A DNA stretch of 64,000 nt, from assembly GCA_964652615.1 (NCBI GenBank), contig CAZZAT010000001.1:8070-72069 (forward strand), in the 5' to 3' direction. The translations under genes were made by a program, and so were the position numbers. A model generated the notes under the pieces. The model searched no databases. It worked only from the letters and a program-made list of their open reading frames with translations, and was not told the origin of the DNA. Positions 1,243 to 49,624 of the stretch are shown piece by piece; position 1 is the stretch's first letter, and each line of letters opens with the position of its first letter. The DNA is from an uncultured Candidatus Saccharibacteria bacterium (GTDB lineage Bacteria > Patescibacteriota > Minisyncoccia > Phycocordibacterales > Phycocordibacteraceae).

Positions 1243-1265
1243 GCTGTCTGGGACGATGTTGGACC
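1243..1265 (+). promoter_or_regulatory. Copy a of the recurrent motif GCTGTCTGGGACGATGTTGGACC
   Basis: Near-identical 23-28 nt box also at 11133, 48550, 49059 and 49598. Here it lies between the convergent 3' ends of gmk and the 1298..1930 gene, followed by TTCTAGAGTT, which also follows copy b. Confidence 0.4.
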
Positions 1266-1297
1266 CTCTTAGTACTTTCTGGACGAAATTAAAACTT

Positions 1298-1930
1298 CTA
1301 GAGTTTCAATAGCGCTTTTAACCGATGCTTGGTCTGTGGGTGAATATTGTTTTTTGCCATATGCGCAAGGACTTGATCTTTTGCTCGAACTAATTCTCTT
1401 GCAATAAAGGGAGCTGTATCGAGGTACTGCTGGTAGCCCTCTTCGCTGACAACAAAATTTCGTTCGGTTTCTCCGTCAAAATGCAGCCCCTCTATACCCA
1501 TAGCTTGTAGTTCTTTGTTAACGTACGCAAAAGTACGTTCGTCAATACGCTTATTCCCAAAGAAACCGACCTTTGGTTTATCTAAAGTGCGTTCAGAATT
1601 CCGAACCCGCTCACGTATAGTTCCTCCGCGCACTTCTTCTGTGTTTTCAAACGCAGCGTGTATAGCTGGAAAGTGTTTCGGGAAGAGGACTTTCAGCACA
1701 CGGTGCGCATGCAGTGTTTCTTCAGCTCGCAGTTCTTTTCGAAAAGAATGAGCTATTACCAACTCTGGGTTTAACGGGTGCACCTCAACTAGACTCTCTG
1801 CACCCTTACCTAATACTTCTCTCCCGGCTTCCCGAAGTGCCTTTTCGGCCGCTCCCATGGCATCTCTATCGAAACGCAGTGGCGGCATACCTCCTTCTCC
1901 TGGTATCGGGGGAAATTTTTCGTTAGACAT
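1298..1930 (-). CDS. Hypothetical protein (210 aa)
   Basis: Long ORF with no recognisable motif. TATACT sits 7 nt upstream of the ATG, suggesting a leaderless or short-leader mRNA. Confidence 0.5.
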   Translation of the reverse strand: MSNEKFPPIPGEGGMPPLRFDRDAMGAAEKALREAGREVLGKGAESLVEVHPLNPELVIAHSFRKELRAEETLHAHRVLKVLFPKHFPAIHAAFENTEEVRGGTIRERVRNSERTLDKPKVGFFGNKRIDERTFAYVNKELQAMGIEGLHFDGETERNFVVSEEGYQQYLDTAPFIARELVRAKDQVLAHMAKNNIHPQTKHRLKALLKL

Positions 1931-1972
1931 AGAATTGAGTATAGCAACCTACTGGCGTCCTACGATTCGAAC

Positions 1973-4036
1973 CTACCCACTCAAAGGCTTCCTCTTTCTT
2001 GCTTTCTTCACCTTCGGTCCCGTCCCTTCAAGTTCATACAACTCATCACGGATAAGCGCAGCTGTTTCAAAGTCGAGCGCCTCCACTGCTTCTGCCATTT
2101 TGAGCCGCAGCTCCTTTGCAAAGCGCTTCGGATCTTTCTTAAAGAGTTCTGTATCAACCGAAAGCATCGAATCCACTGTCTTCTGATGTTCGCTTCGCAT
2201 GCTCTCTGCAATATCGCGAATCTCTTTCTTAATGGTCTCTGGCGTGATGCCGTGCTTTTCGTTGTATGCAAGCTGTATGGCGCGACGTCTGTTAGTTTCT
2301 TCAATGGCGCGCTCCATAGAGCCGGTCATGACGTCTGCATAGAGGATGACGCGGCCAAGCACGTTTCTTGCTGCACGACCTATCGTTTGAATAAGAGATG
2401 TTTCGCTTCGAAGGAAACCTTCCTTGTCCGCATCAAGAATACCCACCAGCTCCACCTCCGGAAGATCTAGTCCCTCGCGAAGCAAGTTCACGCCAACCAG
2501 CACATCAAAGGTTCCTTTGCGAAAGGCAGTGAGAATATCGATGCGCTCAATGGTTTTCACATCAGAGTGCAGATACTCTGCCTTTATCTTTCGCTCCTTC
2601 AAGAACTCGGCAAGATCTTCTGCCATTTGCTTGGTGAGTGTGGTTGCAAGCGCGCGACCTCCACGTGCGATAACAACTTCCACTTCAGAAATAAAATCAG
2701 CAACCTGTCCCTTGTATTCGCCTGATTGAACAATAGGGCGAAGCGTAAGTTCGGGATCCACAAGACCGGTAGGGCGGATGATCTGCTCTACGACTTGGCC
2801 GTTTGGAGAAACGCTGTGCTCTTTCTCATATCCTCCTGGAGTGGCTGATGTAAAGATGACTTGGCCGATACGCTCTTCAAACTCCTCAAAGCGAAGCGGC
2901 CTATTATCACGCGCAGACGGCAAGCGGAAACCATACTCAACGAGATTGTCTTTTCGTGAACGATCACCCGCATACATGCCGCCAATCTGGGGTACCGTTA
3001 CGTGCGACTCGTCGATAACCGTAAGAAAGTCAGGCTTTCCTTCTTTGGTATGCGGGAAGTAGGAAAGTAGCGTATGCGGTGGCTCTCCCGAAGCGCGTCC
3101 ATCAAAGTGGCGCGAGTAGTTCTCTATGCCGTTCGTATACCCAATTTCTTGAATAAGCGCGATGTCATGCAAGGTACGGCGCTTGATGCGCTCTGCTTCA
3201 AGCGGCTTCTCTTCGCGCTTAAATTTTGCCAGCTGCTCATCAAGCTCTGCACGTATATCTTCGAGTGCCCTATTCCTCTCATCGTCCGAAGTAACAAAAT
3301 GCTTTGCAGGGAAAATAAACAAAGAGTCAGGCTCTGAAAGAAGGGCACGCGACACCGGATCAAGACACTCGATAGCAGCAATAACGTCGCCATCAAAGCG
3401 AAGCCTGTAGATGACGCGCTCGTTAACCGGCATCACTTCAAGCGCATTCCCTACCGCACGCACCTTCCCCGGCTCAAGGTCTGCATTCGTACGCTCGAAA
3501 TATATCTTGATGAGCTTTCGCACTAATGCAGCACGGTTCTCCTCGCCGCCCTTTTGAAGCTTCAGTATGGCTTCTGCATAGCGTGAGGGAGAGCCGAGAC
3601 CGTAAATAGCGGAAACAGACGCGACAATGATGACGTCTTTGCGCGTCAAAAGCGCTTGTGCTGCTGCGTGGCGCAATCTGTCTATCTCCGCGTTAATCTG
3701 CGCTTCTTTTTCAATATAGGTATCAGAGTGCGCAAGATACGCTTCCGGCTGGTAGTAGTCGTAGTAGGAGACGAAGTAGTGGACAGCATTTTCAGGAAAG
3801 AACTCTCGGTACTCCTGCGCAAGCTGTGCCGCAAGCGTTTTGTTGTGCGCTAACACTAACGTCGTCTTCTGCGTCTGATTAATGACATTCGCTATCGTAT
3901 ATGTCTTGCCTGTTCCTGTTGCGCCAAGCAAGGTCTGGCTTCTCATGCCTTTCTCGACGCCCTTGGAGAGCGCCTTAATAGCCTTCGGCTGGTCGCCTGC
4001 AGGAGGAAACGGGGTATGGAGCTTAAAGCCTGACAT
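1973..4036 (-). CDS. uvrB: Excinuclease ABC subunit B
   Basis: Walker A GATGTGKT near the N-terminus, helicase motifs, and a C-terminal UVR domain (ALIRDELYELEG). Start placed at MSGFKLHTPFP (ATG complement at 4036); the ORF-track start at 4096 adds 20 aa of read-through. Confidence 0.9.
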   Translation of the reverse strand: MSGFKLHTPFPPAGDQPKAIKALSKGVEKGMRSQTLLGATGTGKTYTIANVINQTQKTTLVLAHNKTLAAQLAQEYREFFPENAVHYFVSYYDYYQPEAYLAHSDTYIEKEAQINAEIDRLRHAAAQALLTRKDVIIVASVSAIYGLGSPSRYAEAILKLQKGGEENRAALVRKLIKIYFERTNADLEPGKVRAVGNALEVMPVNERVIYRLRFDGDVIAAIECLDPVSRALLSEPDSLFIFPAKHFVTSDDERNRALEDIRAELDEQLAKFKREEKPLEAERIKRRTLHDIALIQEIGYTNGIENYSRHFDGRASGEPPHTLLSYFPHTKEGKPDFLTVIDESHVTVPQIGGMYAGDRSRKDNLVEYGFRLPSARDNRPLRFEEFEERIGQVIFTSATPGGYEKEHSVSPNGQVVEQIIRPTGLVDPELTLRPIVQSGEYKGQVADFISEVEVVIARGGRALATTLTKQMAEDLAEFLKERKIKAEYLHSDVKTIERIDILTAFRKGTFDVLVGVNLLREGLDLPEVELVGILDADKEGFLRSETSLIQTIGRAARNVLGRVILYADVMTGSMERAIEETNRRRAIQLAYNEKHGITPETIKKEIRDIAESMRSEHQKTVDSMLSVDTELFKKDPKRFAKELRLKMAEAVEALDFETAALIRDELYELEGTGPKVKKARKRKPLSG

Positions 4037-4106
4037 GAGGCGAGTATAGCAAAAGGGCGCGGCATTCTCTGCCGCGCCCTTCCCACCACACACCAATGCC
4101 TATCTG

Positions 4107-4385
4107 CTATTTGCCGACGCCTGCTTCAAACGCGACTTTCACCACTTGGTCATAGAGCCAAGCGATATCGCCTTCGTGCGCATGCAGAATCGTCTGAAGC
4201 GCTCCGCGGCGGCGAATGACGTTCCGGAGGTCTTCCGAAACCGTCTGTCCTTCGCCTTCCTCAAGTTCGTGCTCCTCGTCGAGATAGAAGAGCTCGAGGT
4301 CAGAGCCGAGCTTGGGACGCAACTCTACGATCTTTTCAATCGTGAAGCAGTCAGTGACAGCAAGCAGTTGATCGATAGTTTGCAT
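4107..4385 (-). CDS. Small acidic hypothetical protein (92 aa), co-directional downstream of tgt
   Basis: ORF MQTIDQLLAVTDCF... with an AAGGA SD-like sequence upstream of the ATG at 4385. The longer track ORF (to 4559) overlaps tgt and is probably spurious. Confidence 0.4.
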   Translation of the reverse strand: MQTIDQLLAVTDCFTIEKIVELRPKLGSDLELFYLDEEHELEEGEGQTVSEDLRNVIRRRGALQTILHAHEGDIAWLYDQVVKVAFEAGVGK

Positions 4386-4455
4386 TGGTGGTCCTTTTTG
4401 TACAACCGCCTCACGTGGGCGGGTTACCGATACTACACTACGAATATAAGTCGTG

Positions 4456-5673: not shown

Positions 5674-5716
5674 CAGCTCAAAGTAGCGACAGGAGCCATT
5701 TCGTGCAAGTACGCTT

Positions 5717-6196: not shown

Positions 6197-6250
6197 GCCT
6201 AGCAGTATAGCAGGTAGAGCCTTCTCACCACCCTCTCTGGGGACAAGTGC

Positions 6251-8989
6251 TTAGGAGAGGTAGCGTTCGCGTATTTCTGCCTCAACGGTCTTACGATCCC
6301 TGCCATAGGTGAGGTAGGAAAGCTCGCGAAGATCGTTTACCTGCTCTTGGTTTCCCTTTGGAAGATCTACCGTGCGGATATTGAAGGGCTTTTGCGGCAC
6401 GCCTTCAGCCAGAATGCGCACATACGCATTGCGATTCTCGATATTCACAAAATCAAGCGCTTTGAATGCAGGCGCAAACTGCTTCTCGAAGAATTCGCCG
6501 TCTTCCTCGCCTACACGAAACACTGCCATGGAACCGACGTTGCCGAATACTGCATCGCGTATCTTTTCATCTATCTGCTTCAAGAACTGGTGTGCAATCG
6601 TAAGGGACAGTTTGTATTTACGTGCTTCAGAGAGAATGCCTGGAATGGAATCGGTGGTGATGTTTTGGAACTCATCGATATAGAGGTAGAAGGGCGCAAA
6701 GTTTCCGCGCGGATCATCGGCTCTCGAGAGCGCTGCCATGAAAATCTTGCCTACCATGATAAGACCGAGAAGGTTTGCGTTTCTCTCGCCCAGGCGGCCC
6801 TTGGAGAGATTCACTAAGAGAATCTTCCGGTTATCCATGACGTCGCGGAAGTTAAAGGAGGAATACTGCTGCCCTACGATAGGGCGCATGAAGTCGTTTG
6901 CCGTGAAGTCATCGAACTTGTTCGTGATATAGGGCACGATGTTTTCCAAAGATGCTTCGCCTCCCGCCTGCGTTGCAATCTTTTCCCAGAATTGATTCAC
7001 CACAAGATTATTGCTTCGTGAGAGCTTCATATTGCGAAACGCAGAGTCTGAAAGTACGCGTCCAATATCAAGCATGGTTGAGCCAGAGGCAGGATCTTCC
7101 ATGACGAGAAGCGTTGCGTTGCGGAAGTACTGCTCGAAGGCAGGACCCATGCTTTCAGGCACATCGCCATAGAGTCTGCGGAAAATAGCGAGAAGCTCGT
7201 TCACGATGAACGTCTTTTGTTCAGGACGGTTTTCATCGTACTCAAGCAGGTTTAAACCAAAAGGACGCGAGAGCTCTGCGGGGTCAAAGTAAATGACATC
7301 CTCATAGCGCTCGGGCGGCACCAGAGAGAGCACATCGATAATGTCAGAGCCGTGCGGGTCGATGAAGCACACACCCTCGCCGTTTTTCATATCCTGCTCA
7401 ATCAAGGTCTTCATGAATCCGGTCTTTCCAGTTCCCGTCTGCCCTATCACATACAGGTGCCGCAACCTATCAGCAGGCGATAGGCGCACCGCAGCTTCCT
7501 GCCCGCGAAATGCGTTTCTACCGAGTTGAAGACCCTCTCGCGGAAGTGAGAGCGGGGCTGCCGCTGCGGTAAAACGGGATTGCTTTAGGTGCGGCGAAGA
7601 TACGATACCTTTAGGCGGATAGTGATAGAGGCCCGTAAGCTCTTTCAAGGAAAGTGGCATGCGCGCTTCGTGCGAGAAGAGGCGGTAAGTGAGGTTGTGG
7701 TAAAAGCGCTTTGAGTCTCCTTTCTTGATGCGCTTAAAGCCAACGCGGTTTCCTTTTGTGTTTTCGTACTGATTAAAGGCAGCTTCAAGTTCCCCGATAA
7801 TAGCAGAAGCTCTTCCGGGAGCTGCTGACGAAGCAACAAGGCGGATGTTGGTTTCAACAACCGGAGAAGCCATCTTCTTCTCAACGCCTTCTATTGCCGT
7901 CTGGTCAGGCCCGTAGCTTGATGTCTTCGTATCACCCTTCAATATTGAGCGCGTCTCGTACGCAAAATCAGAGAATAGGTCGTGTGAGATTCTAAACGCT
8001 TCACGCTTTGAGACTCCTTTGCGCAGTTCTTTCAACATTCTGCGGTACGTATTCACATACTTATCCTTTTGCGGCTTGAAGATGATTTGCACGGCAGCAC
8101 CCTCGTCCTCAGGCGCAATCTTTGCAAAAGCATTCAAGAGCGCATTCAAGGGGTCGTATTCGAAGTCTTGGTAGTCCTTCAAGGGCAGCGGATGCGCGCT
8201 CTCAAGCTTTGCAAGGGAGCCTTCATTTTCTCCGTCTTGCACAAAGATGTTGTAGTCGTTTGGAGAGACTTCCATGACCGCATGTGGAAACACGGCGAGC
8301 ACTTGTTTCTCAAAGAGATCTCTGCGGGAGTTTGGTACAGCCGCATAGAAACGAAGCTCTGGTGTATCGACAGGAACGGCAAGCTCAAGCGCAAAGTACG
8401 GCGGTTCTCCGCTGTACGCATCTTCAACAGCAAGCATGCCGCTATAAAACTGCTCCATGGGAGCAACTAATTCTCGAAACGCGCGGCGTATACCTCCCTC
8501 TTCCTCGCTTGCTTTCTCGGGGAGCGCTACTTGATACAACGTCATATGAAGCGACTTCCACTCGGGAGCATTTTCAGCAAGACCTTTGAGTGTCCTTCCG
8601 GTAAGGAGGTAGGCAACAAGATAGCGATGGAAATCGTCTTCTAGGTGCGGGCTCTTTAATTTTTCAAGAACAGAGAATGCGTTATGAATGCCCCGAGCCT
8701 CCATAATGAGGCGAAGCTCTTCCATCGTCTCATCATCGCTTTCAGGATCAAGGTTAAGCGCAAGCTCTCTCGCCTCTGTTTCAGGTATCTGATAGTCAGG
8801 ATGGAGCAATTGACCAGCTGGCGTCTTCACATGCTTCGCAAGGCGCTCGCGTGCAGCTGCTTCAGGAGAAACCGGACGCCGCATGCGTTCAAGTTCGCGC
8901 TCTTTCGCTTCAATTTGTGCGCGCAAATGTGCGAGCTCCGCTTCTGGGGAATCGATAGGCGCTACAGGCCCCTCATACTGCATTTCCAT
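6251..8989 (-). CDS. Large P-loop ATPase (912 aa): VirD4/TraG-like C-terminal half, N-terminal ~450 aa without recognisable homology
   Basis: Walker A VIGQTGTGKTGF; CFIDPHGSD (HerA/VirB4/VirD4-type); Walker B FYLYIDEFQN (DEF as in TraG/VirD4); downstream LSLTIAHQFLKQ (AxQ...Q as in coupling proteins). The N-terminal half matches nothing I recognise. Confidence 0.55.
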   Translation of the reverse strand: MEMQYEGPVAPIDSPEAELAHLRAQIEAKERELERMRRPVSPEAAARERLAKHVKTPAGQLLHPDYQIPETEARELALNLDPESDDETMEELRLIMEARGIHNAFSVLEKLKSPHLEDDFHRYLVAYLLTGRTLKGLAENAPEWKSLHMTLYQVALPEKASEEEGGIRRAFRELVAPMEQFYSGMLAVEDAYSGEPPYFALELAVPVDTPELRFYAAVPNSRRDLFEKQVLAVFPHAVMEVSPNDYNIFVQDGENEGSLAKLESAHPLPLKDYQDFEYDPLNALLNAFAKIAPEDEGAAVQIIFKPQKDKYVNTYRRMLKELRKGVSKREAFRISHDLFSDFAYETRSILKGDTKTSSYGPDQTAIEGVEKKMASPVVETNIRLVASSAAPGRASAIIGELEAAFNQYENTKGNRVGFKRIKKGDSKRFYHNLTYRLFSHEARMPLSLKELTGLYHYPPKGIVSSPHLKQSRFTAAAAPLSLPREGLQLGRNAFRGQEAAVRLSPADRLRHLYVIGQTGTGKTGFMKTLIEQDMKNGEGVCFIDPHGSDIIDVLSLVPPERYEDVIYFDPAELSRPFGLNLLEYDENRPEQKTFIVNELLAIFRRLYGDVPESMGPAFEQYFRNATLLVMEDPASGSTMLDIGRVLSDSAFRNMKLSRSNNLVVNQFWEKIATQAGGEASLENIVPYITNKFDDFTANDFMRPIVGQQYSSFNFRDVMDNRKILLVNLSKGRLGERNANLLGLIMVGKIFMAALSRADDPRGNFAPFYLYIDEFQNITTDSIPGILSEARKYKLSLTIAHQFLKQIDEKIRDAVFGNVGSMAVFRVGEEDGEFFEKQFAPAFKALDFVNIENRNAYVRILAEGVPQKPFNIRTVDLPKGNQEQVNDLRELSYLTYGRDRKTVEAEIRERYLS

Positions 8990-9025: not shown

Positions 9026-9418
9026 TTAGGCTACTTTGCGTATACCACCAAAAAGCCAGTTGATAAGCGAGAGGACAAGCGCAAAGAGAAGCGCCATCCA
9101 GAAACCTGCTACCGCAAATCCTGGAACAATCATCGCAGCGAGCATGACGAGAAGCGCGTTTATAACAAGCGAGAACAAGCCGAGCGTCAGGATATTTATA
9201 GGAAGCGTCAGGAGCGATATGACTGGCTTAATGAATATGTTTATGAGCGCAAGCACCACCGCAAGCACGAGAGCGCCCATAAGCGTAACTTCGGTGCCAG
9301 GTACAAGATATGCCGCAAGCAAGATAGCAACAACGGAAACAAACCAGTGAAGGATAGTCATAGGGTGTTCGTTATGGGTATATACAGAAAGCATACGGTA
9401 TTCTCGTGAACTTTTCAT
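9026..9418 (-). CDS. Four-TM membrane protein, DUF360 / phage-holin-4-like family
   Basis: Translation ...ILLAAYLVPG...LINIFIKPVISLLTLPINILTLGLFSLVINALLVMLAAMIVPGF resembles the putative-holin DUF360 family. The true start may be the internal M (MTILHWF). Confidence 0.5.
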   Translation of the reverse strand: MKSSREYRMLSVYTHNEHPMTILHWFVSVVAILLAAYLVPGTEVTLMGALVLAVVLALINIFIKPVISLLTLPINILTLGLFSLVINALLVMLAAMIVPGFAVAGFWMALLFALVLSLINWLFGGIRKVA

Positions 9419-11079: not shown

Positions 11080-11132
11080 GAGAGAGAAATTGTACCAAAA
11101 TGGTTATCCACCATGAGCACACATATTTGATG

Positions 11133-11156
11133 GTTGTCTGGGACACTGTTGGAACC
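11133..11156 (+). promoter_or_regulatory. Copy b of recurrent motif (GTTGTCTGGGACACTGTTGGAACC)
   Basis: In the divergent region between the PIF1 helicase (-) and a small + ORF, about 50 nt upstream of the ATG at 11205. Followed by TTTTCACAACATGTGGTACTTTTTTCTAGAGTTAGAAGGAGG, which includes an SD. Confidence 0.45.
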
Positions 11157-11204
11157 TTTTCACAACATGTGGTACTTTTTTCTAGAGTTAGAAGGAGGTT
11201 CATT

Positions 11205-11450
11205 ATGAACATTGTGCAAGTTGCTCGTTTCTTTGAAGCTGTTCGAAGAGAAGGTTCTGTCGCCGTGTCTAAAGAATGCCCGAGTCTTACGGAAGGAAAC
11301 TTCCTTAAATTCGATAAGTTTGGACACCTTTGCGCTGACGCAGGATCGCTCGCCTTGCTTTTTTCCGGCTTGGCAGACCCTAATACAAAGGGTGTTGAAG
11401 AGACTGTGCGCAACGAAATGATAGCGTTCGGTGAACGCTACGTTCGATGA
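11205..11450 (+). CDS. Small hypothetical protein (81 aa)
   Basis: ATG preceded by AGGAGG at -12, directly downstream of motif copy b. The track ORF start at 11100 is upstream read-through across the motif. Confidence 0.4.
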   Translation: MNIVQVARFFEAVRREGSVAVSKECPSLTEGNFLKFDKFGHLCADAGSLALLFSGLADPNTKGVEETVRNEMIAFGERYVR

Positions 11451-11520
11451 AGAAACGAAACCGCTCCAGAGATGGGGCGGTTTCTTGCTGGCAGCTTGGG
11501 ACGAAGTTAGAACTTTACTC

Positions 11521-12319: not shown

Positions 12320-12379
12320 GTAAATTATTCTGTGCTTATATCGAAGAATTGCAACTGGCTGACATCCTAGAACTCGAAC

Positions 12380-12832
12380 CTACCTCTTCACTAACCCCAG
12401 AAGCTCCTTTCTCCGCACGAAAACCAACACTAAGCTCGACACCCATACTAGGCATGCCGCCACAAAAAGTCCTCCACCATCGTTATTTGGATCAGTTCCA
12501 AGTGGTGTAAAGAGGTGAAAGAATACCGCTCCGGTCATAATGCCAAATGCAAGAAGAGCACCAAAACCCTGAAGCTTGCGTAGTGCAGGAATGATACCAA
12601 GCAGAAGAAGTGCCGAGGCAACCAATTCTACAGAACCAATGACATAGGGACTAAAGAGACCACTTGATGAGAAGAGTCCAGGAGTTCCAAGCGTGCCCGC
12701 CCAGTCATTTAAGATGCCGAAGATGTTCTCGGTATTTGGATGATTCGTAAACTTAAAACGAAGAGAGTCTACGAACACTGCGGCAATGAAGAGTGCAAGT
12801 GCATGCGGGATATACGAGAGGATTCTTTTCAT
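12380..12832 (-). CDS. DoxX-family membrane protein (putative)
   Basis: Four-TM, 150 aa protein with DoxX-like hydrophobicity and Gly-rich loops. Family assignment is by resemblance only. Confidence 0.45.
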   Translation of the reverse strand: MKRILSYIPHALALFIAAVFVDSLRFKFTNHPNTENIFGILNDWAGTLGTPGLFSSSGLFSPYVIGSVELVASALLLLGIIPALRKLQGFGALLAFGIMTGAVFFHLFTPLGTDPNNDGGGLFVAACLVWVSSLVLVFVRRKELLGLVKR

Positions 12833-16198: not shown

Positions 16199-16220
16199 GT
16201 GTAAATTCTAACAAATTTTG

Positions 16221-16293
16221 CTGGGGAGCTAGGGCACGATCCTAGAGTCTTCTGCTTCAAAGGCAGACGTGTTACCAATTACACCACTCCCCA
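16221..16293 (-). tRNA. tRNA-Gln (anticodon UUG)
   Basis: Reverse complement UGGGGAG-UG-GUGU-AAUUGGUA-ACAC-G-UCUGC-CUUUGAA-GCAGA-AGACU-CUAGG-AUCGUGC-CCUAG-CUCCCCA-G. It folds as a cloverleaf with anticodon UUG. CCA is not encoded. Confidence 0.7.
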
Positions 16294-34547: not shown

Positions 34548-34618
34548 GGGTCCATAGTTTAATGGTAGAACGAAGGCCTCCAAATCCTTTGGTCGAGGTT
34601 CGATTCCTCGTGGGCCCG
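34548..34618 (+). tRNA. tRNA-Trp (anticodon CCA)
   Basis: Acceptor GGGUCCA/UGGGCCC (one G-U pair), anticodon loop CUCCAAA (CCA), T-arm CGAGG-UUCGAUU-CCUCG, discriminator G. CCA is not encoded. Confidence 0.7.
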
Positions 34619-34659
34619 CTTTAAAAGTTAAGGCTCCGGATTTCTCCGGAGCCTTGGCT

Positions 34660-35502: not shown

Positions 35503-35588
35503 GGTATTTCCCTTTCTCTTGCCCTGTTTTTGGGCTCTATAGGAACACATTTGTTCCGAGACGACTATATACCCCCTTATTCAAATCG

Positions 35589-35614
35589 GTCAATTCCGTT
35601 CGAATAGCGTCCCA
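35589..35614 (+). repeat. 26 bp direct repeat copy 1 (GTCAATTCCGTTCGAATAGCGTCCCA); promoter-associated box
   Basis: Identical 26-mer at 36189-36214, exactly 600 bp away. The next 10 nt (TGGGCCCGCT, 35616-35625) match the 3' end of tRNA-Trp. Read on the minus strand it gives TGGGACGCTATTCGAACGGAATTGAC, which shares TGGGACG.T.TT.GAAC with the 5-copy motif. Confidence 0.5.
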
Positions 35615-35673
35615 TTGGGCCCGCTAAGCAGAAAAAGAAAGTGGCTAACCTTTCGATTAGCCACTCACGAAGT

Positions 35674-36099: not shown

Positions 36100-36188
36100 A
36101 GAACGTACTCCTTGGCGTTTCAAACGCCTCTCATTCCTGCCCTACTTTCAGGACAGGTAGCTGCACTCTGCTCTTCCTATCTAGATTA

Positions 36189-36214
36189 GTCAATTCCGTT
36201 CGAATAGCGTCCCA
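36189..36214 (+). repeat. 26 bp direct repeat copy 2
   Basis: Identical to 35589-35614. Confidence 0.5.
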
Positions 36215-36300
36215 ACGGGGATGCATTAACTTTCCCCCACTACTAATTTATGTGTACGAAAAGGGCGCGGAGTGTTCTCCGCGCCCTCAAGTCATTTAGA

Positions 36301-44242: not shown

Positions 44243-44352
44243 AGTTGGGTAAGTGTAGCATACTCCGCTTTTCGCCCGCTTAGCGGGTGCGGCGTTGTAG
44301 TTATTCACAAAAAGAAATACCCGAACATGCGTTTGGGTATTTCTGTTTCGTG

Positions 44353-44425: not shown

Positions 44426-44469
44426 GTGGTCTTTGCAGATTAGCGTGCTCGGTATACTCTTGCAAGATT

Positions 44470-44554: not shown

Positions 44555-44592
44555 AAAAAGAATCGAACGCATACTGCGTTCGATTCTTTGTA

Positions 44593-44850
44593 TTAGGGCA
44601 ACAGCGAATCTGACGTTGCCCCGATAAGTCCCACAATGCCGTTTGCAGCGAAAATAATAGCAAGTCCTACGATACCCCAAATCATGTGGCGGCGCCCGTC
44701 TTCTTTCTCTTTTCCGCCGGTAGCTCCTGCACGTATGTATTCAACAACTCCCCACAGAAAGAGAAGGAAGGCTGCAAGCGCAACAAGCGTCATCAAGGGC
44801 TCTATGAGCTGGCGTACAATTCTTCCTACAAACGATTCAAGTGCTTCCAT
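44593..44850 (-). CDS. Small two-TM pilin-like protein, paralog 1 (85 aa)
   Basis: Shares the pattern hydrophobic helix - G..EEKKKEA/GGKEKEDGRR - second helix (I.G..G.....S.WG.V..L) with the five neighbours. Confidence 0.5.
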   Translation of the reverse strand: MEALESFVGRIVRQLIEPLMTLVALAAFLLFLWGVVEYIRAGATGGKEKEDGRRHMIWGIVGLAIIFAANGIVGLIGATSDSLLP

Positions 44851-44868
44851 GAAGCTAGTATACCTCCC

Positions 44869-45093
44869 CTAGCCTCGCGCAAGCGAAAGTAAGATGTGGA
44901 GGATGAAGGTTAGCGCAAGCACGATAAGGCCATAGAGCATCACGGTCTTCCCATGATCTGCAAGTTCTTCGTCGTACCCTCCTGCAAGAAGGAAGAGGCC
45001 TGCACCCCACGCAAAGGAAGCGATGGACGCAGTAAACAGGATAGGTATGAAAAGCTGGAAGAAAAAATAGGCTGCAATGCTGCCAATAGTCAT
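44869..45093 (-). CDS. Small two-TM pilin-like protein, paralog 2 (74 aa)
   Basis: Same architecture. Confidence 0.45.
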   Translation of the reverse strand: MTIGSIAAYFFFQLFIPILFTASIASFAWGAGLFLLAGGYDEELADHGKTVMLYGLIVLALTFILHILLSLARG

Positions 45094-45165
45094 GTGTAGA
45101 TTCTAGCATCCTTACGTAAAGGAAAAACCGCCGATCTGTATCGGCGGTTTTTCGTACGAGCACCT

Positions 45166-45513
45166 CTAGCGAGGCCCAGGGGCTGGCGGTAGTGGAGGAA
45201 CGTTTGAGTTCAAGTTGAAGGTTCCAACGAGAATGTTCACAAGGCCCCATACCGATACCATCACGAAGAAGCCGACAATGCCGTAGAGCATGAGGTGCGT
45301 TGCTTCTTTCTTCTTCTCTTCACCACCAGCAATGAAGTACTGGAAGACACCCCAGATGAACACGAGGAAGGCGATAGCGAAGATAAGCGGCACCAAGACA
45401 CCATTGATGATGTTGGTGATGGTTGCTGCAAGGCTCGTAATATTTGACTGTGCAAGCGCAAGTGCAGGCAGGGCCCAAGCAGCGGCGGCAGCAATCGGTA
45501 TGAGTTTTTTCAT
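45166..45513 (-). CDS. Small two-TM pilin-like protein, paralog 3 (115 aa) with signal peptide and Pro-rich tail
   Basis: Signal peptide with AQS cleavage-like site, ITNIINGVLVPLIFAIAFLVFIWGVFQYF, EEKKKEATHLMLYGIVGFFVMVSVWGLVN, and a PPLPPAPGPR tail. Confidence 0.5.
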   Translation of the reverse strand: MKKLIPIAAAAAWALPALALAQSNITSLAATITNIINGVLVPLIFAIAFLVFIWGVFQYFIAGGEEKKKEATHLMLYGIVGFFVMVSVWGLVNILVGTFNLNSNVPPLPPAPGPR

Positions 45514-45614
45514 TGATGATTATGTAAGGGCCCTTGTAATGGCTATGGATATAGCATAGTGCTTCATTACGGCGCGTCAATGCACATTATGTGCCTGTGT
45601 GGAAAACGTCACGA

Positions 45615-46076
45615 TTAACCGCCGCAGATATATGTTGCCGTATTGCACGGAACGCCGTACTCACATCCAGGAAGGGGTGGTCGACAACTCTCTCCAACTC
45701 GTCCCCTTCTCGTACGGATGTCACCACCTCCTCCTCCATTACCTCCGCCAAAAATATCTCCAAGTATGTCTTCTACTAGATTGCCCCCGCTTGGCGCTCC
45801 AAAGCTTGGTAGCGGCGGCCTTCCCTGTCCTTGGAAACCAAAGGTGCCAACGAGCACGTTCACCATGCCCCATACAGAAATCATGAGAAAGAACCCGATG
45901 ATGCCGTAAATAGCGAATTTGCGTGCTTCTTTGCGTTTGTCATCGCTGTTGCTGTTAAGAATGAATCCTTGGACAATACCCCAGATAAAAACAAGGAACG
46001 CTATGGTAAAGATAAACGGAACGATGACCGAATTAATGAGGTTTAGAAGAAACGCGAAGAAGTCGAGAATGGGCAT
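45615..46076 (-). CDS. Small two-TM pilin-like protein, paralog 4 (153 aa) with Gly-rich linker and Cys-containing tail
   Basis: Core is near-identical to paralog 3; the C-terminus is GGGNGGGGGD...ESCRPPLPGCEYGVPCNTATYICGG. Confidence 0.5.
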   Translation of the reverse strand: MPILDFFAFLLNLINSVIVPFIFTIAFLVFIWGIVQGFILNSNSDDKRKEARKFAIYGIIGFFLMISVWGMVNVLVGTFGFQGQGRPPLPSFGAPSGGNLVEDILGDIFGGGNGGGGGDIRTRRGRVGESCRPPLPGCEYGVPCNTATYICGG

Positions 46077-46079
46077 GGT

Positions 46080-46319
46080 TTAGAAGAATGAGTACATAAG
46101 CAAGCGCACAAGGCCCCATACGGAAAAGATAACGGCGAGCGCGATGATGCCGGAGACGGCAAACGCACGCCCCTCCTTGCGCTTATCCTCGCTATCGCTG
46201 AAGAAGTAGCGCACAATGCCGAAAAGAAAGAACAGGAACGCAAGCGCGTAGAGAAACGGAATAATAACCGCATCCACTATCGGAACAATTCTGCCGTAGA
46301 CAATATCAGCGAAGGTCAT
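46080..46319 (-). CDS. Small two-TM pilin-like protein, paralog 5 (79 aa)
   Basis: Same architecture (SEDKRKEGRAFAVSGIIALAVIFSVWGLV). Confidence 0.45.
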   Translation of the reverse strand: MTFADIVYGRIVPIVDAVIIPFLYALAFLFFLFGIVRYFFSDSEDKRKEGRAFAVSGIIALAVIFSVWGLVRLLMYSFF

Positions 46320-46597
46320 ATAGCTCCTACGGTTGATTCAATAACAACGGCAAGTCCGCTTGCACCAAGAAGAAGCAGACCGCCAATGACTGTCCAAAGT
46401 AGTGCCTCGCGAGCTTTCTTAATCTCTTCAGGCTTCCCTTGCGCTTTCACAAAGAGAAAGCCGACATACACCAAAACGATAGTGAGAAAGATAGTACCGA
46501 GATACACCACCGCATCAAGAAGAAGCAAGAGAAGGTCAGGCAAGGTACACACCTGAAGCGGATTCACGAGGGCCCCTTCTTGTCCGCAGGTATCCAT
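46316..46597 (-). CDS. Small two-TM pilin-like protein, paralog 6 (93 aa)
   Basis: Same architecture (KPEEIKKAREALLWTVIGGLLLLGASGL). Confidence 0.45.
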   Translation of the reverse strand: MDTCGQEGALVNPLQVCTLPDLLLLLLDAVVYLGTIFLTIVLVYVGFLFVKAQGKPEEIKKAREALLWTVIGGLLLLGASGLAVVIESTVGAI

Positions 46598-46599
46598 AG

Positions 46600-47889
46600 T
46601 TAGCGAAGTGATGCGTTAAGCGCACGCGCGGCGGCCTCAACCGCTTCAGCTGCTTCTTCTCTGCCAGTAAGCATATTCCCTATCATAGCCGAGAAGATAG
46701 CGTCAGTCGCGTCAGGTGAGGGGGATAGCCAACCCTTGGCAAGGAGCGCTTCTGGGTAATAAAGGGTCTGGTAGCGGTCGCTTGCAGAAGGCGTAAGAAG
46801 CGAACGGTGAGCAGGAGCCGCTCCAAGCGTGTTTGCAATAGCAAGTGCTGGCCTATTCTCGGAGAGCGCAGCTGCTACTTTATACGCCCCAGAAGGGTTT
46901 CGTGCCGCTCTTGTTATGGCAAGCGCATACGCTTTTCCGTAGGTTACGCCTCCCGCATTTGTGCCTAGGCGTGGGATCCTTCCCATATCAAAATCAAGGT
47001 TTGGAGAAGCAGCTTTCAAGAGATTAAGCTCTGAAGCAAAGCCTGGATAGAGTGCCAGATCCCCTACGAGAAACGCGGAACGTGAAGATGGTTGGCCTGC
47101 ATTCCATGAATAGAGCGTCCGTGAGGGATTACCGAACTCTGTGTAGTACGTGAGTGCTGCTTCAGCTGCCGTTCTTCCAAAACCTCCTTCTGTGTCGAGC
47201 ACCGCTTGCACGCCCCTATCCGTCTTGGCAGTTATCGGTGTCCCCGCCTGGAGCATGAGGAGTGAAAGAATTGCACGAGCATTCGTTACGTTTGCATAGC
47301 TTCCAAACGGCACAAGACTTTGATCAAGTACGCCTCCTTGGTCGCGTTTAATGATGACGCTTGCAAGCCCTGCAACTGCTTCCCAGGTAGCGGGAGGTGA
47401 CGCAATGCCAGCAGAAGCAAGAATGGTGCGATTGTAGTAGAGGACGAGCGGGTCAAGCGCAAGCGGTATGCCGTAAACGCCCTCATCTGCAAGGAACAGC
47501 TCAAACTCTGGAACAAAGAGATCAACGAAGGTGCGCTCCGGAATGGTTTGGTATGGAATAGGCGCAAGCTTGCCGCGCTCGGCATAGAGCTCTTCTTGTG
47601 AAATGAGTACAAGATCAGGTCCTGTTCCTTCAGCGATGGCATCTGCAAGATCGCGACTGAAGGTTGCCGCAGACATTTCGACATAGCTCACTTCGCTATA
47701 TTCGTTGCTTGAGGCCGTAAGCTCTGAAAGTCCCGCTTCGATAGCGGCTTTTGGCATAAGGCCCCATATCACTACCTGCCCTGCGCGTGCGCTTGCACCT
47801 CCTCCTCCGCTAAAGTTTGCAAAAAGATACAGACTCACAAGTGCGAGTATGCCAAAGGCGACGAGGAGAACGACTTGAAAGATCTTCAT
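46600..47889 (-). CDS. Membrane-anchored extracellular solute-binding-protein-like protein (429 aa)
   Basis: N-terminal TM anchor, then a ~400 aa domain with periplasmic-binding-protein character. Assigned by overall pattern; low confidence. Confidence 0.4.
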   Translation of the reverse strand: MKIFQVVLLVAFGILALVSLYLFANFSGGGGASARAGQVVIWGLMPKAAIEAGLSELTASSNEYSEVSYVEMSAATFSRDLADAIAEGTGPDLVLISQEELYAERGKLAPIPYQTIPERTFVDLFVPEFELFLADEGVYGIPLALDPLVLYYNRTILASAGIASPPATWEAVAGLASVIIKRDQGGVLDQSLVPFGSYANVTNARAILSLLMLQAGTPITAKTDRGVQAVLDTEGGFGRTAAEAALTYYTEFGNPSRTLYSWNAGQPSSRSAFLVGDLALYPGFASELNLLKAASPNLDFDMGRIPRLGTNAGGVTYGKAYALAITRAARNPSGAYKVAAALSENRPALAIANTLGAAPAHRSLLTPSASDRYQTLYYPEALLAKGWLSPSPDATDAIFSAMIGNMLTGREEAAEAVEAAARALNASLR

Positions 47890-47912
47890 ACGTCAATCGT
47901 ACTACATGCGCG

Positions 47913-48458: not shown

Positions 48459-48549
48459 ATGAGTAAAATAGCACGGCGTTCTATAGGCAGTGGTTTGTTA
48501 TCGACATACGCAAACATGGCTTTGAAAGCTTTGACCACAAGGAGTCTCT

Positions 48550-48577
48550 TGCTGGCTGTCTGGGACGATGTTAGAAC
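48550..48577 (+). promoter_or_regulatory. Copy c of recurrent motif (GCTGGCTGTCTGGGACGATGTTAGAACC)
   Basis: About 20-30 nt upstream of the candidate ncRNA. Followed by the perfect hairpin GGGCGGAGTGG-CATAG-CCACTCCGCCC at 48607-48633. Confidence 0.45.
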
Positions 48578-48589
48578 CTTTCTAACTTC

Positions 48590-49035
48590 GGAACCAAAAG
48601 CAGCGGGCGGAGTGGCATAGCCACTCCGCCCTTCCGGCTACAGCTCGGTGTCAATTCCGCGCTTGCCGTTGCCGTACCTTGCTATAGGAACCTCTCTGGT
48701 ATGGAACATTTTTGACAAAGAATCGTGTTGGAGTAGACTCGCCTTCGGTGGTTTAGGCAAACGTTTGTGGTCTGCCGAGGGTTTGACTCCCTCAATGGCC
48801 GTTGTTTTTGGAAGACGGAGACAATCGGGAGTTCGATTCTCCTGAGACGGACTGATAGCTCATCCAGCGTCGCGCAGCCCTGTGCGCCTCACGGCGCACA
48901 TACTAGGTGGGAGACGAAAGTCGCCAATGAGACACCACTCGCGCTGGAAACAAGACTCGGGAGCCTTCGGGTGTGACGGGTCGTCGTAGGTCGCTTAAAC
49001 CACCACCTCGCCACCTCATGATATGAGGTGGTTTT
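48590..49035 (+). ncRNA. Candidate structured non-coding RNA of unknown class (~430 nt)
   Basis: A 680 bp gap with no credible ORF. Bounded by motif copy c upstream and an intrinsic terminator at 49011-49040. Contains a tRNA T-arm-like element GGGAG-UUCGAUU-CUCCU (48829-48846), a cUUCGg tetraloop, and several GC-rich helices. Confidence 0.35.
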
Positions 49036-49040
49036 TGTTT
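49011..49040 (+). terminator. Intrinsic terminator (CCACCTCAT-GATA-ATGAGGTGG then TTTTTGTTT)
   Basis: Perfect 9 bp stem followed by a T-run on the + strand only. Confidence 0.65.
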
Positions 49041-49058
49041 GCATACGATAGTTAGCAA

Positions 49059-49086
49059 GCTGGCTGCCTGGGACGCTGTTGGAACC
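49059..49086 (+). promoter_or_regulatory. Copy d of recurrent motif (GCTGGCTGCCTGGGACGCTGTTGGAACC)
   Basis: About 55 nt upstream of the ATG at 49140; followed by TTTTCACTACATATGCTAGGCT. Confidence 0.45.
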
Positions 49087-49139
49087 TTTTCACTACATAT
49101 GCTAGGCTCTGTCCAGGACAGTAGATGGAGTGAATAGTC

Positions 49140-49538
49140 ATGTCCCTTGATAGAACTGCTGCTTTTCGAGCGAAGGTTGTCTCGGCAAAGGAAAAAGAAG
49201 CGGAGGAGCGTAATGCTCAGGAAGCAGCTAGGGATGCGGAACTCGAACAACTACGAGCCCAGCATCCCGAAGTCGTCGCCCTTTTAAAAAGCGACGACGG
49301 GTGGTTCTGGCCACGCCCCCATGAACCTCTCCCGGAGAAAAAGGCTCCTGCAGGATGCTTCTTTCTCCTCGGAGGCTGGTACGATAATCAAGATGGTCGT
49401 GGTTCTGGCAGAACCTTCTGGAAGCTCAAAGTCGTTGATGCTTCCGTTCGCGAAGTCATCGATAAGATAATAAAGCTTGAGAATACTGGCATGACCAGAA
49501 CAACAGATGACATCTCGAAAGTCAGATTCTTCGGTTAG
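49140..49538 (+). CDS. Hypothetical protein (132 aa), N-terminal K/E/A-rich helix
   Basis: ORF downstream of motif copy d; no motif recognised. Confidence 0.45.
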   Translation: MSLDRTAAFRAKVVSAKEKEAEERNAQEAARDAELEQLRAQHPEVVALLKSDDGWFWPRPHEPLPEKKAPAGCFFLLGGWYDNQDGRGSGRTFWKLKVVDASVREVIDKIIKLENTGMTRTTDDISKVRFFG

Positions 49539-49597
49539 TTCGTCATCCCATCCTTACCTTAGAGAAAGCTGGAATTGTTTCCGGCTTTCATTTTATG

Positions 49598-49624
49598 CTG
49601 GCTGTCTGGGACGATTATGGAACA
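49598..49624 (+). promoter_or_regulatory. Copy e of recurrent motif (GCTGGCTGTCTGGGACGATTATGGAAC)
   Basis: Overlaps the stop codon region of the minus-strand HEPN-like gene. It is oriented so that a transcript from it would be antisense to that gene. Confidence 0.4.

What the first reader, a model, noticed from the sequence alone, without database searches (positions are those of the whole stretch)
1243..49624. Recurrent ~28 nt intergenic motif GCTGGCTGTCTGGGACGATGTTGGAACC (five copies) defines a putative small regulon
Near-identical copies lie at 1243-1265, 11133-11156, 48550-48577, 49059-49086 and 49598-49624, all in the same orientation on the + strand and all intergenic. Three sit 25-55 nt upstream of + strand targets: the 81 aa ORF at 11205, the candidate ncRNA at 48590 and the 132 aa ORF at 49140. 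Two sit at the 3' ends of convergent minus-strand genes, the 210 aa gene 1298-1930 and the HEPN-motif gene 49615-50133; from there they would drive antisense transcripts or unannotated sRNAs. Copies a and b also share a downstream TTCTAGAGTT box. The core TGGGACG-NT-NTT-NGAAC is shared with the 26 bp repeat pair at 35589 and 36189. Five near-identical copies (23/28 or better) are far beyond chance in 64 kb, and every regulated product is of unknown function. I cannot assign the motif to a known sigma or transcription-factor class from sequence alone.
Basis: seen in the sequence. Interest (0 to 1): 0.75.

Follow-up and report, generated by a model that had tools for sequence, protein, structure and literature searches.

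The report
tRNA-Gln-derived repeat bounding mobile gene cassettes
The repeated 30-nt motif is real, but it looks less like a promoter of a small regulon than like an attachment-site repeat, derived from the 3' end of tRNA-Gln, that bounds small, highly variable single-gene cassettes in many Patescibacteria genomes.

Summary

The regulon reading is mostly not supported. I collected 303 copies from 114 Patescibacteria loci (0.06 expected by chance).
- They form same-orientation arrays with a median spacing of 557 nt.
- About 65% of a 147-copy subset lie 0-4 nt from a stop triplet on the opposite strand.
- Only about 14% carry an in-register extended -10 element, as c2 and c7 do.

The flanked genes are almost all unrelated: 194 proteins fall into 182 clusters.
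- The same gene recurs in different genomic contexts.
- Close relatives differ by whole cassettes cut at the motif.
- The window's 132-aa cassette occurs in three contexts, with breakpoints inside the motif.

On the opposite strand the motif resembles the T-arm and acceptor end of tRNA-Gln.
- In 22 of 22 loci that hold a tRNA-Gln gene, the arrays start just downstream of it and are co-oriented with it.
- Copy c4 carries the exact 3' end of the nearby tRNA-Trp.

Best explanation: an attachment site for site-specific integration of integrase-less mini-cassettes. This combines features of integrons and of tRNA-anchored islands. The recombinase has not been identified.

The parts
1237..1266 (+). 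Type A motif copy c1 (ACCCTAGCTGTCTGGGACGATGTTGGACCC). It lies between the terminator of the guanylate-kinase-like gene (hairpin 1200-1224) and the 3' end of the minus-strand 210-aa ORF.
   Evidence: (nhmmer E=3e-8)
11127..11156 (+). Type A copy c2. It is followed by the class I extension with an extended -10 element (TGgTACTTT, 11170-11178), an RBS and the ATG at 11205.
11485..11514 (+). It follows the hairpin after the 81-aa ORF and lies 6 nt from the stop codon of the minus-strand 143-aa ORF.
48549..48578 (+). Type A copy c6, the first site of the three-cassette array inserted between the methyltransferase gene and gyrA.
49057..49086 (+). Type A copy c7. It is followed by an extended -10 element (TGcTAGGCT, 49100-49108), the CTGTCCAGGAC box, an RBS and the ATG at 49140.
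49595..49624 (+). Type A copy c8. It overlaps the stop codon (49615-49617) of the minus-strand 172-aa ORF.
35585..35628 (-). Variant copy c4 (core 35598-35614). Read on the + strand it is GTTCGAATAGCGTCCCAT followed by TGGGCCCGCT (35616-35625). That 10-mer is identical to the last 10 nt at the tRNA-Trp 3' end, 1 kb upstream and in the same orientation.
36185..36228 (-). Variant copy c5 (core 36198-36214). With c4 it brackets the 141/149-aa ORF.
   Evidence: (family D11)
1938..1977 (+). Weak, degenerate tRNA-end-like copy (type B-like). Its reverse complement reads GGTAGGTTCGAATCGTAGGACGCCAGTAGGTTGCTATACT. It is flush with the uvrB stop codon and contains the -10 element of the leaderless 210-aa ORF.
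   Evidence: (family D12); not detected by nhmmer
12345..12384 (+). Second weak type B-like copy. It is flush with the stop codon of the 150-aa ORF and lies upstream of the 112-aa ORF.
   Evidence: (family D12)
16220..16293 (-). tRNA-Gln(UUG), proposed primary anchor. Its 3' end (...CCCCAGCAA) is followed directly by a TAGAAT -10 element and a leaderless ATG. About 10 small, mostly unannotated genes follow on the same strand, down to c3 and c2.
34548..34619 (+). tRNA-Trp, proposed anchor of the c4/c5 pair.
11157..11484 (+). Cassette holding the 81-aa ORF (11205-11450) and a hairpin (11458-11483).
48579..49056 (.). Cassette with no ORF. It is a strongly structured non-coding segment.
49087..49594 (+). 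Cassette holding the 132-aa ORF (49140-49538) and a terminator (49564-49589). The same unit is found in two other genomic contexts.
49625..50162 (-). Cassette holding the 172-aa ORF (49615-50133). A relative that has gyrA directly next to the methyltransferase gene lacks it.
1267..1937 (-). Cassette holding the 210-aa ORF, between the type B-like copy and c1.

Best explanation
The motif is an attachment-site-like repeat that marks the boundaries of small mobile gene cassettes.

This is a diverged copy of the T-arm plus acceptor 3' end of tRNA-Gln.

Proposed mechanism (inferred, not shown):
- A circular cassette carries one complete site. Cassettes have a median length of about 560 nt and usually hold one gene with its own minimal promoter.
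- The cassette recombines with the 3' end of the tRNA-Gln gene, with an existing copy of the site, or occasionally with a weakly similar secondary site.
- This builds same-orientation arrays of the form site-cassette-site-cassette.
- The crossover falls in the acceptor-strand-like segment ACAGCCAG. The 22-25 nt part (TGTCTGGGACGATGTTGGAACC) therefore travels at one end of a cassette and the 8 nt part (TTGCTGGC) at the other.

What is shown by sequence comparison: the array architecture, the tRNA-Gln anchoring, the variability of the cassettes, and the breakpoints inside the motif.

What is inferred: catalysis by a trans-acting site-specific recombinase encoded elsewhere in the genome.

In one cassette class the site's TTGGAA also serves as the -35 element of the cassette promoter.
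For: 1. Abundance and arrays. There are 303 copies in 796 kb from 114 Patescibacteria loci, against 0.06 expected. The median spacing is 557 nt and 93% of spacings are under 1.5 kb. No multi-copy locus has mixed orientation.

2. Position. With crude ORF calls, 86 of 115 intergenic copies face a convergent gene end, and a reverse-strand stop triplet lies 0-4 nt after the motif in 95 of 147 copies. The other side is followed by a -10 element plus a leaderless ATG, or by a terminator.

3. Cargo. 194 adjacent proteins fall into 182 clusters. Recognisable families include HAD, GNAT, NUDIX and glyoxalase proteins and DUFs. The window's cassette proteins match no Pfam, NCBIfam or PADLOC family.

4. 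Mobility.
- Six recurring gene families have non-homologous neighbours in every genome.
- The 132-aa cassette occurs in three unrelated contexts at 87-93% nucleotide identity. The homology spans window 49065-49602, which is exactly one repeat period.
- The junctions are AATAACGT|TGTCTGGG......ATGCTGGC|ATCCTAGGATTCGAACC and ...ATGCTGGC|CATCTCGG.
- Variant bases of each motif half travel with the adjacent cassette.

5. Polymorphism.
- L055 has gyrA and the methyltransferase gene 70 nt apart. The window has 1.7 kb (three cassettes) at that position.
- L146 and L142 are 92-95% identical and share both flanks and one cassette. They differ by an 845-nt cassette bounded by motif copies, and by unrelated cassettes.
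- Of 28 informative ends of alignments at 85% identity or more, 16 fall inside a motif copy and 4 more at partial copies. Chance expects 1.6%.

6. tRNA link.
- tRNA-Gln accounts for 21 of the 34 tRNA genes in motif loci.
- In 22 of 22 loci with a tRNA-Gln gene (the window included), the copies lie downstream of it and are co-oriented with it.
- The gene upstream of tRNA-Gln is conserved, but the first gene downstream is never homologous.
- Nineteen 'type B' copies are near-exact tRNA-Gln 3' ends lying outside any tRNA gene.
- L077 has exact 21-nt copies of its own tRNA-Gln end interleaved with type A copies.
- c4 carries the exact 10-nt end of tRNA-Trp.
Against: - No tyrosine or serine recombinase signature was found in about 800 kb of array-bearing sequence (crude regex; Pfam on subsets). 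The enzyme is therefore hypothetical.
- The site has no dyad symmetry and no hairpin. Most characterised tyrosine and serine recombinase core sites do have these.
- No excised circle or empty-site read was observed. Population contigs of the window's own species all show the same arrangement.
- Distant homologues (about 70% identity) of the 210-aa cassette gene lack the motif.
- The breakpoints are not all at one position (reverse-complement positions 18|19, 22|23 and 24|25). Fitting them to a 7-bp overlap region is my interpretation.
- Gene calls were a crude greedy ORF heuristic.
- Most loci come from MAGs or metagenome contigs.
Confidence: 0.6

Rival explanations
1. Regulon motif. The motif is a promoter or operator recognised by an alternative sigma factor or a transcription factor, and it co-regulates the adjacent genes.
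For: - c2, c7 and 19 further copies have an extended -10 element exactly 16-19 nt after TTGGAA, against 0 in the control. Seventeen also share a TGTCYAGR box near the predicted start.
- On the other side, 35 copies are followed within 12 nt by a -10 element and a leaderless start codon, against 6 in the control.
- The motif contains direct repeats of TGGnAC at an 11-bp period, as OmpR/PhoB-type sites do (sequence; own knowledge).
Against: - 94 of 147 copies have no promoter-like element on either side.
- With crude ORF calls, 24 of 115 intergenic copies (21%) lie between convergent genes.
- The spacing to the reverse-side -10 element varies from 2 to 11 nt.
- Conservation is uniform over about 30 nt.
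- The target genes are unrelated between genomes.
- The sigma-54 consensus fails on spacing by 1 nt and lacks the GC of the -12 element (sequence).
- The tRNA-Gln end itself is followed by the same -10 arrangement, so the promoters are -10-driven and belong to the cassettes.
Confidence: 0.08
2. Uptake or homology tag. The motif is a DNA uptake sequence, or a portable homology patch, and cassettes are exchanged by natural transformation and homologous recombination between copies, with no dedicated recombinase.
For: - No recombinase is linked to the arrays.
- The window encodes DprA and pilin-type genes, and Patescibacteria are reported to be naturally competent (PMC10633639, listed).
- The motif is conserved across many genera, as uptake sequences are within families (own knowledge).
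Against: - The copies are clustered, strictly intergenic and co-oriented within arrays, rather than dense and in both orientations genome-wide.
- The hybrid junctions in L105 and L107 join a motif half to sequence with no homology to the partner. Homologous exchange cannot produce this.
- Anchoring at tRNA-Gln in 22 of 22 loci is not expected for an uptake tag.
Confidence: 0.1
3. Target-site duplication. A transposase or casposase-like integrase inserts gene-sized DNA at the tRNA-Gln end and duplicates a target of about 30 bp at each event, as CRISPR repeat duplication does.
For: - The arrays have the repeat-insert-repeat form, start at a fixed 'leader' (tRNA-Gln), and have a repeat length of 30-35 nt.
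- L077 and the type B copies are exact duplicates of the local tRNA end.
Against: - Type A is the same in genomes whose own tRNA-Gln ends differ, so it is not a copy of the local target.
- Variant bases of each motif half travel with the adjacent cassette.
- Half-sites occur at array ends. Duplication of a target would not produce them.
Confidence: 0.1
4. RNA-level element. Transcribed with the upstream gene, the tRNA-like sequence acts as a 3'-end processing or stability signal (tRNA punctuation) or as a terminator.
For: - It lies immediately after stop codons and is co-oriented with the upstream gene in most copies.
- Type B copies retain a T-arm hairpin.
- tRNA-like processing signals are known in organelles (own knowledge).
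Against: - Type A, the dominant and best conserved form, has no predicted structure (z-scores +0.7).
- In forward-type arrays the motif lies between a terminator and a promoter, so it would not be transcribed.
- This reading does not explain the exchange of cassettes at the motif.
Confidence: 0.05

Closest known systems
Integrons (IntI integrase, attI, attC-bounded gene cassettes), especially sedentary chromosomal integrons
   Same: - Same-orientation arrays of mostly single-gene cassettes a few hundred nt long.
- The recombination site starts at the stop codon of the cassette gene.
- The cargo is diverse and mostly of unknown function (GNAT, glyoxalase, NUDIX, DUFs).
- Cassette content differs between close relatives.
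- The site is split by the crossover, so a short part starts each cassette and the bulk ends it.
   Different: - The site is a linear, sequence-conserved 30-35 nt stretch with no attC-type hairpin.
- No intI gene lies next to the arrays.
- The arrays are anchored at tRNA-Gln.
- Several arrays occur per genome.
- Most cassettes carry their own -10 promoter.
tRNA-anchored additive genomic islands, such as the Prochlorococcus tycheposon islands (10.1101/2020.12.28.424599); also tandem accretion of att-flanked elements lacking integrases (CIMEs; own knowledge)
   Same: - Integration at the 3' end of a specific tRNA gene.
- Partial tRNA copies separate successive insertions and are scattered through the island.
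- Variability starts right next to the tRNA.
- The host genomes are streamlined.
   Different: - The elements here are about 0.3-1.1 kb and carry no integrase or replication module. Tycheposons are multi-kb and most encode a tyrosine recombinase.
- The dominant repeat (type A) is not the local tRNA end. It is a distinct version shared across genera.
- Arrays also occur away from any tRNA gene.
pdif modules of Acinetobacter plasmids (XerC/XerD sites flanking small gene modules; own knowledge)
   Same: Small gene modules are bounded by a site of about 28 bp and moved by a recombinase encoded elsewhere.
   Different: pdif sites have two 11-bp inverted arms around a 6-bp spacer and alternate in orientation. 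The present site has no dyad symmetry and is always in direct orientation.
PeSL 'mobile regulatory cassettes' of T4-type phages (own knowledge)
   Same: A conserved promoter/terminator-associated repeat flanks orphan genes in hyperplastic regions and mediates their shuffling.
   Different: PeSLs are phage early promoters with stem-loops that recombine by homology. Here the repeat is tRNA-derived and chromosomal, and it shows hybrid junctions with non-homologous DNA.

Membership tests
Integron | An attC site: an imperfect palindrome (R''-L''...L'-R') of 57-141 nt that folds as single-stranded DNA | tested here: not met
   The 30-mer has no predicted structure on either strand (z +0.69 and +0.77). 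The longer class I form is not significantly structured (z -1.3). No dyad symmetry is visible in the sequence.
Integron | An intI tyrosine recombinase gene with attI and Pc next to the array | tested here: not met
   No HxLRH-type or YxRVS-type signature in any ORF of at least 120 aa across about 800 kb of loci. No recombinase family among the Pfam scans of neighbours. The regex is crude.
Integron | Co-oriented array of small, diverse, mostly single-gene cassettes that varies between relatives | tested here: met
tRNA-targeting integrative element / additive island | Located at the 3' end of a tRNA gene, with direct repeats that copy the tRNA 3' part | tested here: met
   The geometry is consistent in 22 of 22 loci with a tRNA-Gln gene. 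Type B copies and the L077 repeats equal the tRNA-Gln end. c4 carries the tRNA-Trp end. Type A is a diverged version with an expanded T-loop region.
tRNA-targeting integrative element / additive island | The element encodes its own integrase | tested here: not met
   The cassettes have a median length of 557 nt and hold one small ORF.
Sigma-factor or transcription-factor regulon motif | Fixed position relative to transcription or gene starts | tested here: not met
   Only 21 of 147 copies (forward side) and 35 of 147 (reverse side) have promoter-like partners, and 94 have none. The reverse-side spacing varies from 2 to 11 nt.
Sigma-factor or transcription-factor regulon motif | A conserved set of orthologous target genes across genomes | tested here: not met
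   182 clusters among 194 adjacent proteins. The first genes after tRNA-Gln are never homologous.
Sigma-54 promoter | TGGCACG-N4-TTGCW with invariant GG and GC separated by the canonical spacing | tested here: not met
   The motif reads TGGGACG-N3-TTGG. The spacing is one base short and the -12 GC is absent. The consensus is from my own knowledge.
DNA uptake sequence | Dense genome-wide distribution in both orientations, including inside genes | tested here: not met
   There are 6-8 copies in 64 kb, in four clusters and all intergenic. No mixed-orientation locus exists. Uptake itself cannot be tested here.
CRISPR array | Repeats of 28-37 nt separated by spacers of about 30-40 nt | tested here: not met
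   The median spacing is 557 nt and the intervals contain ORFs.
Xer/dif-type site | Two inverted arms of about 11 bp around a 6-8 bp spacer | tested here: not met
   There are no inverted arms in the consensus (sequence).

The most novel reading that the evidence does not exclude
Paceibacteria-type Patescibacteria possess a lineage-wide gene-capture system.
- Integrase-less single-gene cassettes each carry a 33-nt site derived from the tRNA-Gln 3' end.
- An unlinked and so far unrecognised recombinase inserts and exchanges them at tRNA-Gln and at secondary sites.
- Functionally this is an integron analogue, evolved independently from a tRNA attachment site, in bacteria with very small genomes.
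Probability: 0.45. Interest if true: 0.85.

Novelty: new variant of a known kind. Interest (0 to 1): 0.75.

Why it matters
Patescibacteria have tiny genomes, few recognised mobile elements and a large share of orphan genes. How they acquire and shuffle accessory genes is an open question.

A conserved 33-nt site would address that question. It bounds hundreds of different single-gene cassettes in many genera, and it is anchored at tRNA-Gln. It could provide:
- a concrete mechanism for their flexible gene pool;
- a simple sequence tag for harvesting that pool from metagenomes;
- a defined DNA substrate for finding the responsible recombinase, which might serve as a genetic tool for these hard-to-manipulate organisms.

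It would also be a second, independent route to integron-like cassette arrays.

Tried and rejected
- **Sigma-54 and ECF-type promoter readings.** Rejected on spacing and on the lack of a conserved -10 element.
- **Hairpin, attC or terminator reading of the motif.** No structure is predicted.
- **CRISPR, REP/MITE and dif readings.** Rejected on spacing and on the absence of inverted repeats.
- **Phage origin.** 23 of the 24 viral-contig hits were the coding sequence of a C5 DNA methyltransferase of Rhodobacterales prophages, and none was from Patescibacteria.
- **Known RNA family for the ORF-less cassette 48579-49056.** Nothing in Rfam.
- **Homologues of the 81-aa ORF.** Only the protein itself was found.
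- **Homologues of the 210-aa ORF.** One close strain has the same context. The more distant homologues lack the motif, so this family gave no boundary information.
- **Strain-level presence/absence of the window's arrays.** Contigs carrying identical flanking proteins showed only the same arrangement.
- **A recombinase next to the arrays.** None found.
- **The motif as a general feature of all intergenic regions.** Rejected. Of the 55 intergenic regions of at least 15 nt in the window, only six hold the GTTCNAA core, all at the known copies.
- **Literature.** Searches for the sequence itself and for cassette or integron systems in Patescibacteria found nothing.

Full report
**1. Observation**

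The 28-mer occurs four times with at most 3 mismatches (0.00 expected). The looser core TGGGACGNTNTTNGAAC occurs eight times (0.38 expected).
- Six near-consensus copies lie on the + strand: c1 1237-1266, c2 11127-11156, c3 11485-11514, c6 48549-48578, c7 49057-49086 and c8 49595-49624.
- Two half-variants lie on the minus strand: c4 with core 35598-35614 and c5 with core 36198-36214.
- PWM and nhmmer scans find nothing else of comparable score.
- All copies are intergenic.

The window comes from a Patescibacteria genome. It has about 50% G+C, T4SS-pilin gene clusters, uvrB, tgt, gyrA and scattered tRNA genes.

**2. The motif is widespread and forms arrays**

A degenerate pattern scan of one genome per species returned about 50 hits in Paceibacterota, Parcubacteria, Kaiserbacteria, Nomurabacteria and other Patescibacteria MAGs, several per genome. 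A metagenome scan returned 57 more loci.

Allowing up to 8 mismatches in 30, the 114 loci (796 kb) hold 303 copies, against 0.06 expected.
- The median spacing is 557 nt, and 93% of spacings are under 1.5 kb.
- No multi-copy locus mixes orientations.

Conservation is nearly uniform across about 30 nt, plus an A-rich 5-nt extension, with no half-site periodicity. The motif has no predicted secondary structure.

**3. Position relative to genes**

I used crude greedy ORF calls.

On that opposite strand the layout is:
- stop codon of the upstream gene;
- 0-10 nt;
- AAAGGTTCCAACATCGTCCCAGACAGCCAGCAA;
- 2-11 nt;
- a TAnnnT -10 element;
- 6-8 nt;
- an ATG.

- terminator hairpin;
- the motif;
- CTTTCTGCAACATATGCTAGGTTCTGTCCAGAC, in which an extended -10 element sits 18 nt after TTGGAA;
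- an RBS and an ATG.

This second class covers 21 of 147 copies, including c2 and c7. In all, 94 of 147 copies have no promoter-like partner on either side. About a fifth of intergenic copies sit between convergent genes, as c1, c3 and c8 do. The motif is therefore not itself a promoter, although in one cassette class its TTGGAA is placed to act as a -35 element.

**4. The flanked genes are a variable pool**

- 194 adjacent proteins fall into 182 clusters.
- Recognisable families are HAD, GNAT, NUDIX, glyoxalase, histidine phosphatase and DUF proteins.
- The window's ten cassette proteins match nothing in Pfam, NCBIfam or PADLOC.
- Surrounding genes are ordinary housekeeping genes.
- Six families that recur between genomes each sit beside a motif copy and have unrelated neighbours every time.

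**5. Direct signs of mobility at the motif**

(a) A relative, L055, has gyrA and the methyltransferase gene 70 nt apart. The window has 1.7 kb at that position: the 172-aa gene, c8, the 132-aa gene, c7, an ORF-less segment and c6.

(b) The 132-aa gene has homologues of 92% and 83% identity in two unrelated contexts.
- DNA homology to the window runs from 49065 to 49602. That is from position 9 of c7 to position 8 of c8, exactly one repeat period.
- The L105 left junction lacks the first 8 nt of the motif: AATAACGT|TGTCTGGGACG...
- The L105 right junction keeps them and continues into a different, tRNA-like right part: ...ATGCTGGC|ATCCTAGGATTCGAACC.
- The L107 right junction continues into unrelated DNA...ATGCTGGC|CATCTCGG.
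- Variant bases also follow the cassette. GACGCTGTT occurs in both c7 and L105, and ATGCTGGC occurs in all three.

(c) L010 and L039 are 92.6% identical over 1384 nt and lose synteny at a motif copy.

(d) L146 and L142 are 92-95% identical and share both flanks and one cassette. They differ by one 845-nt cassette bounded by motif copies, and by otherwise unrelated cassettes.

(e) Of 28 informative ends of high-identity alignments between loci, 16 lie inside a motif copy and 4 more at partial copies. The motif covers 1.6% of the sequence.

**6. The tRNA connection**

A shorter variant, type B, was found 19 times outside tRNA genes. It reads (TAG)GTTCGAATCCTGGGCGGCCAGCAA. This is a T-arm plus acceptor 3' strand ending in ...CCAG, as tRNA-Gln does. 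It lies flush with the upstream stop codon and ahead of a -10 element and an ATG.

tRNA-Gln genes are strongly over-represented in motif loci.
- They account for 21 of the 34 tRNA genes in the fetched motif loci, and the window holds one more.
- In all 22 loci with a tRNA-Gln gene, the motif copies lie downstream of it, with the tRNA-like strand co-oriented.
- The first copy is 165-1152 nt away (4.7 kb in the window).
- The tRNA 3' end (...CCCAGCaa) is followed directly by a -10 element and a leaderless ATG, just as the motif is.
- The gene upstream of tRNA-Gln is conserved between genomes. The first gene downstream is never homologous.

In L077, exact 21-nt copies of the local tRNA-Gln end alternate with type A copies. 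Type A aligns to the tRNA end as GTTC..A[insert]CGTCCC[5 nt]GCCAGC.

In the window, about ten small unannotated genes separate tRNA-Gln (16220-16293, minus strand) from c3 and c2.

Copy c4 ends with TGGGCCCGCT. This is identical to the last 10 nt at the 3' end of tRNA-Trp (34548-34619), 1 kb upstream and in the same orientation. That is the classic signature of integration into a tRNA gene.

**7. Mechanism**

The anatomy fits reciprocal site-specific recombination between a circular cassette carrying one complete site and a chromosomal site. The chromosomal site can be the tRNA-Gln end, a resident copy, or a weakly similar secondary site.

Three breakpoint positions were seen:
- reverse-complement position 18|19 in c4;
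- 22|23 in L105 and L107;
- 24|25 in eleven copies that keep only ...GC before TGTCTGG.

All three fall within the acceptor-strand-like ACAGCCA. I read this as a candidate overlap region.

This step is inference. No recombinase gene was found near any array, the site has no dyad symmetry, and no excision product was seen.

**8. Comparison with known systems**

- The array logic matches integrons, but the defining attC structure and the linked intI gene are absent.
- The tRNA anchoring and the partial-tRNA repeats match additive islands such as the tycheposon islands of Prochlorococcus. Those elements are multi-kb and most encode their own integrase.
- I found no description of this repeat or of cassette arrays in Patescibacteria.
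- I therefore rate it a new variant of a known kind.

**9. Caveats**

- ORF calls are heuristic.
- Most comparative loci are MAG or metagenome contigs.
- The whole genome of the window's organism could not be scanned.
- The regulatory and recombinational roles are not mutually exclusive.

Noticed in passing
window 48579-49056: The cassette between c6 and c7 has no credible ORF but folds far better than shuffled controls (+ strand z = -4.6, - strand z = -3.3). It has a strong minus-strand terminator at 48631-48605 and matches no Rfam family. It may be an unknown structured RNA carried as a cassette. No homologue was found in any fetched locus other than the same strain.
   Followed up: partly
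loci L004, L008, L013 and others, and viral loci L081-L104 (not in the window): A stretch of 24-27 nt of the motif (G.TGTCTGGGACGATGTTGGAACCTT) is identical to coding sequence of a C5 DNA methyltransferase. The protein there reads ...VVWDDVGTFDGRPWRGAVDIVTAGYPCQPFS. The gene occurs in Rhodobacterales genomes and their prophages. My rough estimate is about 0.005 such matches by chance in the collection scanned. No biological link was found.
   Followed up: partly
window 16220-16293: The tRNA-Gln of this organism has an unusual T-loop region (GGATCGTGCCC instead of GGTTCGAATCC). Its ATCGTGCCC resembles the motif core ATCGTCCCA.
   Followed up: no
window 48459-48480 and 11080-11110; many loci: Many genes appear to be leaderless. 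An extended -10 element (TGnTAnnnT) ends 6-8 nt before the ATG and there is no Shine-Dalgarno sequence. Examples are the methyltransferase gene, the PIF1 helicase gene and most cassette genes. Forward-type cassettes have GGAGG ribosome-binding sites instead.
   Followed up: partly
class I extension, e.g. window 49087-49118 and 11157-11190: The conserved sequence after the motif in class I cassettes ends in GGTTCTGTCCAGAC. This is a shortened inverted copy of the motif, or of the tRNA-Gln end. Inverted tRNA-Gln-end fragments also flank terminators in L077 (2787-2801). Their meaning is unexplained; possibilities include inversion products, an operator, or a second binding site.
   Followed up: no
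window 1267-1310: The 210-aa ORF stops 31 nt before c1. In the close strain L114 the homologous ORF runs on and stops 3 nt before the motif.
   Followed up: partly
window 44850-46600: A cluster of small T4SS-pilin-like genes has internally repeated 50-nt segments at 45238, 45861 and 46107 (repeat family D3). These are paralogous pilin genes lying next to a solute-binding protein gene.
   Followed up: no
window 6251-8989 and 9415-11079: A VirD4/TraG-like coupling ATPase (912 aa) and a PIF1-type helicase with a C-terminal HTH_40 domain lie at the distal end of the tRNA-Gln island. A PIF1 homologue also lies near a cassette-gene homologue in L118. No functional link was tested.
   Followed up: no
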